Both the position numbers and the translations under genes were made by a program. Below the pieces are notes generated by a model that did no database searches, was not told the DNA's origin, and saw only the letters and a program-made list of their open reading frames with translations. A stretch of 64,000 nt of DNA from an uncultured Trueperaceae bacterium (GTDB lineage: Bacteria; Deinococcota; Deinococci; Deinococcales; Trueperaceae). Of the stretch, positions 45,985 to 46,998 are shown piece by piece; position 1 is the first letter of the stretch; the number at the start of each line of letters is the position of its first letter. The stretch is from assembly GCA_963815215.1 (NCBI GenBank), contig CAWFFU010000003.1, positions 1,024,001 through 1,088,000 on the forward strand, written 5' to 3'.

Positions 45985-46167
45985 CCCGCTACTGTAGCCG
46001 CTCCGTGCGGCCCCGCCACGCGGGCGGGCGTGACGGTCGTCTCCGGGCGGCCGCGGCAGCACGCTAGGCTGAGGCGCTGGCCCCCGTCCTCGGGCCCTCC
46101 ACGGGCGCCTGGCGGGCCGAGCACGGCCGCTGTAAGAGTTCCGTAAGCGCGGAACGTTAGGCTGCCG

Positions 46168-46241
46168 GTGAGGAAGCGTTGAAGCTCGATCTGCATTTGG
46201 GCGCTTGGATCGAGTGGAGCTAGTAGCGCACCCGGCCTCAC
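46168..46241 (+). ncRNA. c-di-GMP-II-like riboswitch aptamer 1
   Basis: P1 GTGAGG/CCTCAC; GGAAGCGTTGA kink-turn-like segment; CTCGATC/GATCGAG stem; loop GGGCGCT pairing with AGCGC; GGAGCTAGT...CCGGC; TAGGCT -10 at 46158-46163. Confidence 0.82.
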
Positions 46242-46286
46242 GTCTTCGGCGGCATCATCGTGCCGTACGCTCGTGACCCGCCCGTC

Positions 46287-46326
46287 AAGCGCCCATCGTC
46301 AGGTCGATGTGGCGCTTCGTTGTTTG
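46287..46326 (+). terminator. Predicted riboswitch-controlled terminator
   Basis: AAGCGCC-CATCG-loop-CGATG-T-GGCGCTT followed by CGTTGTTTG (imperfect U tract). Confidence 0.6.
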
Positions 46327-46353
46327 CACCTGCCGCTCGGCCCCTCGACCGAA

Positions 46354-46433
46354 GGGTTCGGAGGCTATGAGCCGAGACTCCCAACATGGGCATCAAGGGA
46401 CTCGGGGAGCCAGTGATGCAACCGGCCGGACCT
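46354..46433 (+). ncRNA. c-di-GMP-II-like riboswitch aptamer 2
   Basis: P1 GGTTCGG/CCGGACC; GGAGGCTATGA; CCGAG..TCCC/GGGA-CTCGG stem; loop GGGCATC pairing with GATGC; GGAGCCAGTGATGCAACCGGC. Confidence 0.88.
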
Positions 46434-46518
46434 GGTACCGCATGTGCGGGCCGGATGGCCCACGCTCGCGGGCGCCAGCGCTCCCCCGGTTGCATCCGTC
46501 GACGAAGGGGGACGACGG

Positions 46519-46998
46519 ATGCGCCGCACTGGCACGACCGCTCTGACGTTGCTGTTCGGCTGGATGCTGTTCTCCGGCGTGGCCGGAGCTCAGGCCACCG
46601 CCCGCAACACCGTAACCGTGCACATCCCCAGCGTGCTGCGACTGAGCATCGATCAGGGCACGGCGAGCGATTCGCAGACCCTCGACGTGACCGTCGGCGG
46701 CACCGTCGACGGCACCTTCGACGGCACGCTGGTGGACCCGGGAAGCGTGACCGTCAAGGTCTTCGCGAACACCCAATGGGTCCTGTCGATCGAGGACAAG
46801 AGCCCCGCCGCCCCGACCCTTCAGGTCTGCACCACGTACGCGAGCCTGGCAGGCTGCTACCCGCTCGATCCCACGAAGAAGTTCGCTACGCAGCCGCCCA
46901 CCGGAGGCTGGCAGGACATCCCCCTGACGCTCCGCGTGAATTCGCCCGTCGCCACCACCATGACCCACACCCTGACCTTCACCCTGAGCCGGCCCTGA
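46519..46998 (+). CDS. Secreted all-beta protein, pilin/fimbrial-subunit-like
   Basis: Signal peptide ending AGA; alternating beta patterns (TVTVHIPSVLRLSI, THTLTFTL); one Cys pair; SD AAGGGGG. Confidence 0.7.
   Translation: MRRTGTTALTLLFGWMLFSGVAGAQATARNTVTVHIPSVLRLSIDQGTASDSQTLDVTVGGTVDGTFDGTLVDPGSVTVKVFANTQWVLSIEDKSPAAPTLQVCTTYASLAGCYPLDPTKKFATQPPTGGWQDIPLTLRVNSPVATTMTHTLTFTLSRP

What the first reader, a model, noticed from the sequence alone, without database searches (positions are those of the whole stretch)
46158..46998. Tandem c-di-GMP-II-like riboswitches forming a two-layer (transcription then translation) OFF switch on a secreted pilin-like gene
Seen: a ~350-nt leader starting just after a TAGGCT -10 contains two class-II-like aptamers (46168-46241, 46354-46433) whose pseudoknot pairs covary (GCGCT/AGCGC versus GCATC/GATGC). 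Platform 1: the aptamer loop TGGGCGCTTG (46198-46207) is the exact 10-nt complement of CAAGCGCCCA (46286-46295), the 5' arm of a terminator-like hairpin (46287-46317). Platform 2: aptamer GATGCAACCGG (46415-46425) is the exact 11-nt complement of CCGGTTGCATC (46486-46496). That segment overlaps GCATCCGTCG (46492-46501), which otherwise pairs perfectly with CGACGGATGC (46513-46522) over the start codon; TCCCCC (46482-46487) is also anti-SD. Known: c-di-GMP-II riboswitches use a kink-turn and pseudoknot and often control surface proteins. Inference: ligand binding allows termination at switch 1 and start-codon occlusion at switch 2, so high c-di-GMP doubly represses an uncharacterised secreted beta protein.
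Basis: partly seen in the sequence, partly recalled or inferred. Interest (0 to 1): 0.88.

Follow-up and report, generated by a model that had tools for sequence, protein, structure and literature searches.

The report
Tandem c-di-GMP-II riboswitches, double OFF
Two genuine c-di-GMP-sensing RNA switches sit one after the other in front of a small secreted protein gene of a Trueperaceae bacterium, probably shutting it off first at transcription and then at translation; both the doubled switch and this two-step design are already known kinds.

Summary
Rfam's c-di-GMP-II model (RF01786) hits twice on the + strand: 46163-46245 (69.1 bits) and 46351-46436 (60.2 bits; cut-off 53.5). The three exact 10-11-nt complementarities exist.

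The doublet and its 159-aa secreted-protein gene are conserved in 10 of 10 sampled genomes of this Trueperaceae genus and in one further genus. The leader keeps 83% column identity while the protein falls to 31-44% identity.

- **Aptamer 1** is followed by a conserved 12-bp hairpin with the T-richest tail of the leader. The hairpin's 5' arm pairs with the aptamer's pseudoknot loop.
- **Aptamer 2** is followed by a conserved hairpin that buries the AUG, with the Shine-Dalgarno (SD) sequence in the loop. Its 5' arm pairs with the aptamer's 3' pseudoknot strand. This hairpin recurs with three different distal stems in 16 of 16 related leaders.

Best reading: a "bi-mechanism" double OFF switch, termination then translation. 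This is inferred, not shown. Folding gives no clean ligand-free ON state for switch 2.

Tandem c-di-GMP-II doublets and bi-mechanism tandems are both in print, so this is a new member of known kinds. "Pilin-like" is unsupported, and the proposed transcription start is doubtful.

The parts
46132..46163 (+). Conserved block GTAAGAGTTCCGTAAG (46132-46147), a 10-nt variable spacer, then TAGGCT (46158-46163). Candidate proximal promoter or operator; its role is unresolved.
   Evidence: The block and the TAnnCT hexamer are invariant or nearly so in 11 of 11 aligned leaders, while the spacer varies. The pattern TAAGNGTTYYGTAAG occurs only twice in the 3.3-Mb genome, both times upstream of a c-di-GMP-II aptamer. 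RNA-library contigs nevertheless start upstream of it. A consensus sigma-70 scan found no promoter-like site.
46163..46245 (+). c-di-GMP-II aptamer 1. The conserved P1 is 46169-46173 with 46236-46240. The pseudoknot is GCGCT 46201-46205 with AGCGC 46225-46229.
   Evidence: RF01786, 69.1 bits, E 2.1e-13. The stems covary in 11 leaders and in 49 aptamers. C replaces the highly conserved A at 46231, within CAACCG.
46198..46208 (+). Switching segment of aptamer 1 (P3 loop, 5' strand of the pseudoknot). It pairs either with 46225-46229 or with 46285-46295.
   Evidence: Exact 10-nt complement. The 11-bp helix appears in the unconstrained MFE. It is paired in 97.3% of cells but invariant. A compensatory change is seen in G030: GGGCGCCTG with CAGGCGCCC.
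46249..46266 (+). Linker hairpin between aptamer 1 and its platform.
   Evidence: 7 pairs, 93.3% of cells paired, 3 pairs with changes on both sides.
46287..46317 (+). Terminator-like hairpin: 7 + 5 bp with one bulged T at 46310 and loop 46299-46304.
   Evidence: -19.3 kcal/mol here. A hairpin of -13.4 to -21.2 kcal/mol folds in 11 of 11 leaders. 12 pairs, 87.1% of cells paired, 2 pairs compensatory.
46316..46329 (+). T-enriched tail TTCGTTGTTTGCAC. Expected region of terminated 3' ends.
   Evidence: 7 of 14 T here. The mean T fraction is 0.42 over 11 leaders, against 0.13-0.18 leader-wide. It is the T-richest 14-mer of the leader in 9 of 11. It is interrupted, not a clean U-run. The consensus scan found only a 5-bp version, not above chance.
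46351..46436 (+). c-di-GMP-II aptamer 2. The pseudoknot is GCATC 46390-46394 with GATGC 46415-46419.
   Evidence: RF01786, 60.2 bits, E 6.9e-11. Almost invariant in 11 leaders. The pseudoknot covaries across the clade.
46415..46425 (+). Segment B, GATGCAACCGG: the 3' pseudoknot strand plus aptamer core. It is the complement of segment C.
   Evidence: Exact 11 nt. A complement of 7-11 nt lies 49-53 nt downstream of the aptamer in 11 of 11 window-type leaders, and one of 8-9 nt in 3 of 3 leaders of the second doublet family.
46486..46496 (+). Segment C, CCGGTTGCATC. It pairs with B (anti-sequestor), or through GCATC with the start-codon arm.
   Evidence: GGTTGCATCCGTC is conserved within an otherwise variable spacer.
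46492..46522 (+). Start-codon sequestor hairpin: 10 bp, SD AAGGGGGA (46505-46512) in the 11-nt loop, ATG 46519-46521 in the 3' arm.
   Evidence: -17.6 kcal/mol. 94.5% of cells paired, with one G-C to C-G swap. The same design with three different distal stems occurs in 16 of 16 leaders, -13.4 to -20.4 kcal/mol.
46519..46998 (+). Gene for a 159-aa secreted beta-sandwich protein of an unnamed family.
   Evidence: Orthologues lie downstream of the doublet in 9 of 9 other genomes of the genus, plus G019 and G030. The N-terminus reads as a Sec signal peptide ending AQA (read from the sequence). AlphaFold2 gives pLDDT 80.9 and an all-beta fold. A profile search finds 106 cluster representatives at E up to 0.001. 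No Pfam or NCBIfam family.

Best explanation
The leader of the secreted-protein gene 46519-46998 carries two complete c-di-GMP-II riboswitches that act in series as a "bi-mechanism" double OFF switch.

**Switch 1 (46163-46329) works during transcription.**
- With c-di-GMP bound, the P3 loop is locked in the pseudoknot. The hairpin 46287-46317 can then form, and RNA polymerase stops in the T-enriched tail at about 46318-46330.
- Without ligand, the aptamer's 5' half pairs with the whole terminator region and transcription reads through. The pairings are 46198-46208 with 46285-46295, 46186-46193 with 46300-46307, and 46173-46180 with 46311-46318.

**Switch 2 (46351-46522) acts on read-through mRNA.**
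- With ligand, GATGC (46415-46419) is held in the pseudoknot. Segment 46492-46501 is then free to pair with 46513-46522 and bury the AUG.
- Without ligand, GATGCAACCGG (46415-46425) pairs with 46486-46496 at the base of a long hairpin. This takes half of the sequestor stem away and frees the AUG.

High c-di-GMP therefore represses the protein twice.

**Shown here:** aptamer identity, the conserved hairpins and the complementarities.
**Inferred:** ligand binding, termination, translational block, and polarity.
For: **Aptamers**
- Two full-length RF01786 matches above the cut-off.
- Stems and pseudoknot covary in 49 distinct aptamers: 95.0% of cells paired, against 31-37% for slid controls. Three of 5 pseudoknot pairs are compensatory.

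**Conservation**
- The doublet with this gene is present in 10 of 10 sampled genomes of the genus and in G019.
- The leader has 83% mean column identity, against 31-44% protein identity for the more distant members.

**Switch 1**
- The hairpin is present in 11 of 11 leaders, and its tail is the T-richest 14-mer in 9 of 11.
- The helix shows 2 compensatory pairs.
- A loop complement of 8 nt or more lies 38-41 nt downstream of the aptamer in 10 of 11 leaders.
- The unconstrained MFE forms the loop:linker helix in 8 of 11.
- Here the antiterminator fold is -69.6 kcal/mol and the aptamer-plus-terminator fold is -52.5. That gap implies kinetic control.
- In G030 the loop and its complement change together: T to C in the loop, A to G in the linker.

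**Switch 2**
- The sequestor hairpin occurs in 16 of 16 leaders from three groups with unrelated distal stems. The SD is always in the loop and the AUG always in the 3' arm.
- A complement to the 3' pseudoknot strand is present in 11 of 11 window-type and 3 of 3 second-family leaders.
- When the transcript ends at 46500, the MFE is the B:C long hairpin: -73.1 kcal/mol, against -54.0 for the aptamer fold.

**Chance:** the three exact helices are the only 10-mer complements in the leader. Shuffles reach this count in 0.6% of trials.

**Signalling context:** the genome has 22 GGDEF matches, one of them 2 kb away.

**Precedent:** transcription-then-translation tandems are described for SAM-II/SAM-V and some SAM-II doublets (passages of PMC9481103).
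Against: - Nothing was measured: no ligand binding, no 3' ends, no reporter.
- The tail after the hairpin is interrupted (TTCGTTGTTTG), not a U-run. The consensus terminator scan found 1 site against 0.5 expected.
- In G019 the hairpin is degenerate (-13.4 kcal/mol) and its tail has 3 of 14 T.
- Within the 11 orthologous leaders the two switching helices are 97.0% paired but show no pair with changes on both sides. Covariation there is nil. Support comes only from conservation and from G030.
- In 2 of 11 leaders the RS1 MFE is the aptamer-like fold with the terminator hairpin, and in G019 it is neither that fold nor the antiterminator.
- For switch 2 the full-length ligand-free MFE keeps the start-codon hairpin together with a partial B:C helix: -92.9 kcal/mol, against -88.7 for the full anti-sequestor. 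An ON state is therefore not predicted thermodynamically, and it may be short-lived.
- Aptamer 1 has C instead of the highly conserved A at 46231 in 3 of 11 leaders, this one included. The effect on binding is unknown.
- The third doublet family of the clade does not show the exact-complement rule: only 1 of 9 has 10 nt or more at switch 1.
- G030 switch 2 has no significant complement.
- By recall, not from any call, the studied class-II switches of Clostridioides difficile are ON switches.
Confidence: 0.6

Rival explanations
1. Both aptamers are real, but the hairpin 46287-46317 is not an intrinsic terminator. Switch 1 would then act in another way, for example by Rho-dependent termination, by RNA stability or processing, or by steering the folding of aptamer 2. 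Only the second switch would give direct control, at translation.
For: The T tail is interrupted, and the consensus scan is not above chance. The gene's own 3' hairpin (about 47009-47046, -34.1 kcal/mol) has no T tail either, so hairpins without U-runs are common here. Doublets of the second family (gaps of 68-74 nt) have a loop complement in the linker but no terminator-like hairpin. The G019 hairpin is degenerate.
Against: In 9 of 11 leaders the hairpin's tail is the T-richest 14-mer of the whole leader: T fraction 0.42, against 0.13-0.18 leader-wide. The hairpin is conserved with compensatory changes. Its 5' arm is exactly the segment that competes with the pseudoknot loop, which is the classical terminator/antiterminator layout.
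Confidence: 0.17
2. Switch 2 does not toggle translation. The start-codon hairpin is always formed, and aptamer 2 controls something else, for example exposure of 46474-46491 to Rho or an RNase. Alternatively it only tunes the stability of a constitutively weak initiation site.
For: The full-length ligand-free MFE keeps the sequestor hairpin (-92.9 kcal/mol, against -88.7 for the full B:C state). The aptamer-enforced fold keeps it too. The conserved GGTT of segment C is explained equally well by the partial B:C helix, which coexists with the sequestor.
Against: The 4.2 kcal/mol difference lies within the error of nearest-neighbour models for a 190-nt RNA. Before the 3' arm is transcribed the MFE is the full B:C hairpin, so a co-transcriptional ON state is available. 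The GCATC shared between the B:C and C:D helices is conserved in 11 of 11 leaders. The four-segment layout recurs in three groups of leaders.
Confidence: 0.12
3. Polarity is the reverse for one or both switches: c-di-GMP turns the gene on.
For: By recall only, the class-II switches tested in Clostridioides difficile activate their genes. Surface or secreted proteins are often induced by high c-di-GMP.
Against: Neither platform overlaps the aptamer's own 3' end. Each platform's competing segment pairs with a pseudoknot strand that ligand binding would lock away. With either aptamer enforced, both the terminator hairpin and the sequestor hairpin form. No alternative pairing that would open them on ligand binding was found.
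Confidence: 0.07
4. The aptamers bind a ligand other than c-di-GMP, as a specificity variant of the fold.
For: Aptamer 1 carries C for a highly conserved A at 46231. Rfam holds variant families in the same clan, and 6 lower-scoring overlapping clan matches were set aside.
Against: RF01786 is the best-scoring family of its clan for both aptamers. In 8 of 11 orthologous leaders aptamer 1 has the consensus A, and aptamer 2 has it in 11 of 11. The genome is rich in GGDEF genes.
Confidence: 0.04

Closest known systems
Tandem c-di-GMP-II riboswitches catalogued by Sherlock et al. 2022 (RNA Biol 19:1059, PMC9481103; passages read)
   Same: Two complete class-II aptamers for the same ligand lie in one leader with no ORF between them, upstream of a surface or secreted protein gene. 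The paper reports 59 doublets and 9 triplets.
   Different: The published cases are mostly upstream of a COG4932 surface-anchor gene in Paraclostridium and relatives. They are listed as "pseudo-cooperative". Here the host is a Trueperaceae (Deinococcota) bacterium, the gene belongs to an unnamed 150-aa secreted family, and the two platforms differ: a terminator-like hairpin, then a start-codon hairpin. I could not see the paper's supplements (closed), so this clade may be in its lists.
Bi-mechanism tandem riboswitches: SAM-II/SAM-V and some SAM-II doublets, as described in PMC9481103 (passages)
   Same: [quoted passage not shown] Both respond to the same ligand, and both are OFF.
   Different: The ligand and aptamer class are different. 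In that paper's Table 1, only SAM combinations are listed as bi-mechanism. Here both aptamers belong to one class but carry different pseudoknot sequences.
Tandem c-di-GMP-I riboswitches of Bacillus thuringiensis: the Bc3-5 triple tandem (PMC4759541) and Bc1 with two terminators (PMC11218506). Only search listings and abstracts were seen.
   Same: Several c-di-GMP-sensing units, or terminators, act in series in one leader.
   Different: These use the class I (GEMM-I) aptamer, which is a different fold, in Bacillota.
c-di-GMP-II aptamer with a group I ribozyme in Clostridioides difficile (Lee et al. 2010, as summarised in PMC9481103 and PMC12564702; passages)
   Same: It has the same aptamer class, combined with a second RNA device in one leader.
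   Different: The second device there is a self-splicing ribozyme and the logic is AND/ON. No ribozyme is present here: no other Rfam family matched at its gathering threshold in the leader.
Contiguous c-di-GMP riboswitches enriched in Deinococcota (Microb Genom 2025, PMC12452182; passages)
   Same: It makes the statistical statement that tandem c-di-GMP riboswitches are over-represented in this phylum.
   Different: The passages I read describe no locus, platform or gene for Deinococcota. Truepera is not mentioned in the main text.

Membership tests
c-di-GMP-II riboswitch aptamer (Rfam RF01786) | Covariance-model score at or above the curated gathering score (53.5 bits), over the full model length | tested here: met
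   69.1 and 60.2 bits, model positions 1-84 for both. The genome has 7 such matches.
c-di-GMP-II riboswitch aptamer (Rfam RF01786) | P1-P2-P3 helices supported by compensatory changes | tested here: met
   In 49 distinct aptamers of the clade, 95.0% of cells are paired, against 31-37% when slid. 14 of 20 pairs show changes on both sides.
c-di-GMP-II riboswitch aptamer (Rfam RF01786) | Pseudoknot between the P3 loop and the 3' strand | tested here: met
   46201-46205 with 46225-46229, and 46390-46394 with 46415-46419. 99.6% of cells are paired and 3 of 5 pairs are compensatory.
c-di-GMP-II riboswitch aptamer (Rfam RF01786) | Conserved core nucleotides (for example GCAACCGG) | tested here: inconclusive
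   Aptamer 2 matches the consensus. Aptamer 1 has C for A at 46231. The role of that base in ligand contact is known to me only by recall and was not checked.
c-di-GMP-II riboswitch aptamer (Rfam RF01786) | Selective, tight binding of c-di-GMP | not testable with these tools
   This needs in-line probing, ITC or equilibrium dialysis.
Bi-mechanism tandem riboswitch (transcription, then translation) | Two complete riboswitches for one ligand in one leader, with no ORF between them | tested here: met
   The gap is 105 nt. No conserved ORF lies between them, and the region is conserved as RNA structure.
Bi-mechanism tandem riboswitch (transcription, then translation) | First unit followed by an intrinsic terminator that competes with the aptamer | tested here: inconclusive
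   The hairpin is conserved in 11 of 11 leaders, and its tail is the T-richest 14-mer in 9 of 11. Competition with the aptamer loop is shown by complementarity and folding. There is no clean U-run, the consensus scan is not above chance, and no 3' ends were measured.
Bi-mechanism tandem riboswitch (transcription, then translation) | [quoted passage not shown] | tested here: inconclusive
   The AUG-burying hairpin occurs in 16 of 16 leaders with three different distal stems, and it competes with the 3' pseudoknot strand. However, the ligand-free MFE still holds the hairpin.
   The window protein has no Pfam hit. Of 92 family members scanned, 1 gave a sub-threshold SCPU hit at E 7.6e-4, 20.3 bits against a cut-off of 22.4. 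NCBIfam gave nothing above its cut-offs.
   Foldseek found nothing at E up to 0.001. In VIA-align the best Z is 6.9, and pilin domains at Z 5-6.6 are mixed with unrelated beta-sandwiches. The tool states that Z under 8 may be only a common arrangement.
   The gene stands alone here, between oppositely oriented genes. The same holds in G019 and G030, where the neighbours are an M32 peptidase and a SpoU methylase on the other strand.

The most novel reading that the evidence does not exclude
c-di-GMP-II riboswitches of the Deinococcales form a lineage-specific regulon over an undescribed family of about 150-aa secreted beta-sandwich proteins. These proteins have a highly conserved N-terminal strand (TVTVHIPTVLRL) that could act as a donor strand in a new kind of surface fibre.

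The ancestral unit is a single translational OFF switch, in which the 3' pseudoknot strand competes for the anti-start-codon segment. It is seen as a singlet in a sister family. One Trueperaceae genus added an upstream transcriptional OFF switch with a different, non-cross-pairing pseudoknot. That would be the first bi-mechanism tandem for a second-messenger riboswitch.
Probability: 0.2. Interest if true: 0.6.

Novelty: new member of a known kind. Interest (0 to 1): 0.35.

Why it matters
If the two-step logic holds, this is a compact natural example in which one second messenger is read twice on the same mRNA. The second acts afterwards on finished transcripts. Together they should give tight, steep repression at high c-di-GMP.

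It extends bi-mechanism tandems from SAM to c-di-GMP and from Bacillota and Proteobacteria to Deinococcota. It also flags an uncharacterised secreted protein family as a c-di-GMP output in a phylum where these outputs are little known.

The conserved four-segment design is easy to test by compensatory mutagenesis and could be reused in synthetic circuits. In that design the pseudoknot strand competes for the anti-start-codon segment against the start-codon arm, which here has the same five bases (GATGC).

The discovery value is limited. A routine Rfam scan finds both aptamers, and both the doublet and the design principle are already in print.

Tried and rejected
- **Homotrimer prediction.** The mature protein (residues 25-159, 3 copies) was submitted to test donor-strand self-assembly. 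The verdict was "no answer", score 0.00. This is no evidence either way.
- **Foldseek against PDB.** No match at E up to 0.001.
- **VIA-align wide.** Best Z 6.9, in the tool's stated noise range.
- **ESM Atlas.** The nearest clusters are all unnamed. SCPU (0.91) and WxL (0.90) appear only as leads.
- **Pfam and NCBIfam.** Scans of the protein and 92 relatives gave no family.
- **The search for related loci with the alignment.** It failed because no stretch was conserved enough. Repeated with the single protein, it gave 2 loci whose titles place the clade in Trueperaceae.
- **RNA-library contigs.**
  - Three small contigs of one run stop at 46316.
  - Strain differences cluster at 46317-46325 in the same table, so this is most likely an assembly break, not a 3' end.
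  - Summed contig depth falls after 46332, but the tool says contig depth cannot rank parts of a gene.
  - No contig covers the CDS beyond 46557, which proves nothing.
- **Consensus scans.** The sigma-70 promoter scan found 0 sites and the terminator scan 1 partial site against 0.5 expected.
- **tblastn of the family against the singlet locus L004.** No hit was found, and the frame downstream of that aptamer is unclear.
- **An H-type pseudoknot of TCCCCC with the SD in the sequestor loop.** Considered and dropped. The loops are too short for full stems (my own reasoning), and TCCCCC is not conserved.
- **Closed or unavailable sources.**
  - The structural paper on class II (sought by a DOI recalled from memory) is not held.
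Full report
**Observation**

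A scan of the whole window against Rfam at gathering thresholds gives two matches to RF01786 (c-di-GMP-II). Both are on the + strand and both span the full model: 46163-46245 (69.1 bits, E 2.1e-13) and 46351-46436 (60.2 bits, E 6.9e-11), against a cut-off of 53.5 bits.

They are also the only exact 10-mer complement pairs in 46163-46540. In 1000 dinucleotide-preserving shuffles the mean count is 0.206, and 0.6% of shuffles reach the observed 4.

The ORF 46519-46998 starts 7 nt after a run of five G inside AAGGGGGA. It encodes 159 residues with a signal-peptide-like N-terminus.

**Organism and wider setting**

The nearest public relatives of the protein lie on contigs titled uncultured Trueperaceae, so the host belongs to Deinococcota.

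The window's own 3.3-Mb assembly has 7 RF01786 matches: three same-strand doublets and one singlet. Among 41 genomes (own, genus, family, order), 33 have a match at E up to 0.001 and 29 have one over the cut-off.

The 134 listed matches group into 86 singlets and 24 doublets with gaps of 68-111 nt. The doublets occur in 13 genomes: all 10 of the genus, plus G019, G020 and G030.

The doublets fall into three families by sequence and by downstream gene:
- the window type, with a gap of 103-108 nt;
- a type upstream of a lipoprotein gene, which from its sequence I read as a possible glycoside hydrolase (no family scan run on it);
- a short-gap type (68-74 nt) upstream of a large secreted protein, which from its sequence I read as a possible beta-helix protein (no family scan run on it).

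The genome holds 22 GGDEF matches. One is a PAS-GGDEF gene 2 kb from the finding.

**Conservation of this locus**

I fetched 12 doublet loci. tblastn finds an orthologue of the 159-aa protein downstream in 11 of them: all 9 other genomes of the genus, G019 and G030. The miss is G020, which belongs to the lipoprotein type.

Protein identity to the window's copy is 82-89% for three genomes, 38-44% for six, and 31-33% for G019 and G030. The 11 aligned leaders keep 83% mean column identity, and aptamer 2 is almost invariant. The RNA is therefore under stronger constraint than the protein.

**Aptamers**

On 51 aptamers of the clade (49 distinct), the P1-P2-P3 helices plus the pseudoknot are 95.0% paired, against 31-37% for slid controls. 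Fourteen of 20 pairs show changes on both sides.

The pseudoknot itself is 99.6% paired.

One caveat applies. Aptamer 1 here, and in 2 of the 10 other window-type leaders, has C at 46231 where the model's consensus shows a highly conserved A.

**Switch 1**

The hairpin 46287-46317 is 12 bp with one bulge, at -19.3 kcal/mol. It has a counterpart in 11 of 11 leaders, at -13.4 to -21.2 kcal/mol.

The 14 nt from 46316 have a mean T fraction of 0.42, against 0.13-0.18 for the leaders as a whole. They are the T-richest 14-mer of the leader in 9 of 11.

The helix is 87.1% paired with 2 compensatory pairs. A linker hairpin at 46249-46266 has 3 compensatory pairs.

Three helices pair the aptamer's 5' half with the whole terminator region:
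- 46198-46208 with 46285-46295;
- 46186-46193 with 46300-46307;
- 46173-46180 with 46311-46318.

This fold reaches -69.6 kcal/mol. The fold with the aptamer enforced and the terminator formed reaches -52.5.

The loop:linker helix appears in the MFE of 8 of 11 leaders. A 17 kcal/mol gap cannot be bridged by ligand binding, so the switch, if it works, must be kinetic.

Within the 11 orthologues the loop:linker helix is invariant, so it carries no covariation. In G030, however, the loop reads GGGCGCCTG and the linker CAGGCGCCC, which is a change on both sides.

Against a terminator:
- the T tail is interrupted;
- the consensus scan found only a 5-bp version, 1 site against 0.5 expected;
- G019 is degenerate.

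**Switch 2**

The hairpin 46492-46522 (10 bp, -17.6 kcal/mol) holds the SD in its 11-nt loop and the AUG in its 3' arm.

It recurs in 16 of 16 leaders taken from three groups:
- 11 window-type leaders;
- 3 short-gap doublets;
- 2 singlets of a sister family, which precede a member of the same protein family.

The three groups have three unrelated distal stems, at -13.4 to -20.4 kcal/mol. This is the strongest comparative evidence in the study.

Its 5' arm overlaps CCGGTTGCATC (46486-46496), the complement of GATGCAACCGG (46415-46425). That segment is the 3' pseudoknot strand plus the aptamer core. Such a complement of 7-11 nt is present in 11 of 11 window-type leaders, and one of 8-9 nt in 3 of 3 short-gap leaders.

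There are therefore four segments:
- A: the loop GCATC;
- B: GATGC...;
- C: ...GCATC...;
- D: GATGC, which contains the AUG.

The possible pairings are A:B (the pseudoknot), B:C, or C:D.

When the transcript ends at 46500, the MFE is a long B:C hairpin at -73.1 kcal/mol, against -54.0 for the aptamer fold. At full length the MFE (-92.9) keeps C:D together with a partial B:C helix. The full B:C state is at -88.7 and the aptamer state at -81.6, before any pseudoknot or ligand energy is counted.

A ligand-free ON state is therefore plausible co-transcriptionally, but it is not the predicted equilibrium. I mark the translational OFF logic as inferred.

**Transcription start**

That hexamer and the block GTAAGAGTTCCGTAAG (46132-46147) are conserved. 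The block's pattern occurs only twice in the genome, each time before a c-di-GMP-II aptamer.

Yet contigs from four metatranscriptome runs of four studies, 95-99% alike, cover 46093-46557 and start at 46093, 46100, 46111 and 46136. These starts lie upstream of that hexamer.

A second TAGGCT lies at 46065-46070. The string CTAGGCTGAGG around it also stands about 50 nt upstream of the sister-family singlets.

The start is unresolved. The tool warns that RNA libraries can hold DNA and that contigs show no ends.

**The protein**

AlphaFold2 with a 17-row alignment gives pLDDT 80.9 and an all-beta fold. A profile search of 1.84 billion representatives finds 106 at E up to 0.001, mostly 140-190 aa.

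None of the 93 sequences scanned reaches a Pfam cut-off. The single SCPU hit is sub-threshold. NCBIfam gives nothing.

Foldseek has no match at E up to 0.001. VIA-align tops out at Z 6.9, with chaperone-usher pilin domains mixed among unrelated sandwiches.

The gene stands alone here, and also in G019 and G030. "Secreted" is a fair reading of the sequence. "Pilin-like" is only a lead.

**Comparison with what is known**

Sherlock et al. 2022 (passages read) report 59 doublets and 9 triplets of c-di-GMP-II. Most lie before a COG4932 surface-anchor gene in Paraclostridium, and the paper files them as pseudo-cooperative.

The same paper defines bi-mechanism tandems (transcription, then translation) for SAM-II/SAM-V and some SAM-II doublets. 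A 2025 survey notes that contiguous c-di-GMP riboswitches are enriched in Deinococcota.

Three full-text searches found no description of this locus, of Trueperaceae doublets, or of a bi-mechanism c-di-GMP-II tandem. The supplements of the 2022 paper could not be opened and may list them.

**Verdict**

The locus is a genuine, conserved tandem c-di-GMP-II riboswitch. It is most likely a double OFF switch acting at termination and then at initiation (confidence 0.6 for the full mechanism). It is a new member of known kinds and of moderate-to-low interest.

Noticed in passing
window 46132-46163; G000 contig C11:361486-361500 (- strand): The pattern TAAGNGTTYYGTAAG, which contains the direct repeat GTAAG-N6-GTAAG, occurs only twice in the 3.3-Mb genome. 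Each time it lies 10-11 nt upstream of a TAGGCT hexamer and upstream of a c-di-GMP-II aptamer. It could be a dedicated promoter element or a regulator-binding site.
   Followed up: partly
G000 C11:288378-288653 (L005/L001) and C8:287590-287833 (L002/L006): The same genome has two more c-di-GMP-II doublets. One precedes a 335-aa lipoprotein that I read from its sequence as glycoside-hydrolase-like. The other precedes a secreted protein of more than 439 aa that I read as beta-helix (pectate-lyase-like). No family scan was run on either protein. The second doublet shares aptamer 2 and the start-codon hairpin design with the window's locus.
   Followed up: partly
L004 (G000 C11:359843-362926), aptamer at locus positions 1501-1584 (- strand): The singlet riboswitch is followed by an ATG with a good SD. 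However, the reading frame downstream looks broken or mis-assembled: a signal-peptide-like start runs into an arginine-rich frame. No similarity to the window's protein was detected.
   Followed up: partly
L048/L060 (G030 C1:142566-142999); L029 and L030: In the sister family, the riboswitch-controlled copy of the gene faces a second, weaker c-di-GMP-II match (44-50 bits) on the opposite strand. In G030 that second match precedes three ORFs without any Pfam family. This could be a divergent pair of c-di-GMP-controlled units.
   Followed up: no
window 48953-49915 (- strand): A PAS-GGDEF diguanylate cyclase gene (GGDEF E 4.2e-40) lies 2 kb downstream of the riboswitch-controlled gene. The genome has 22 GGDEF matches in all.
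   Followed up: partly
window 47009-47046: A strong GC-rich hairpin (-34.1 kcal/mol for 46996-47060) lies between the convergent ends of the secreted-protein gene and the 135-aa ORF 47026-47433. It has no T tail, so transcript ends in this organism may not need U-runs.
   Followed up: no
window 46138-46155: GTTCCG...CGGAAC can form a 6-bp hairpin inside the conserved upstream block. By my reading of the alignment, the 3' arm keeps at least 4-5 pairs in about 8 of 11 leaders. This matters only if transcription starts upstream, as the RNA-library contigs suggest.
   Followed up: no
window 32032-33556 (-) and 14513-14602 (+): A complete bacterial 16S rRNA gene (1539 bits) and a 90-nt tRNA with a long variable arm.
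   Followed up: no
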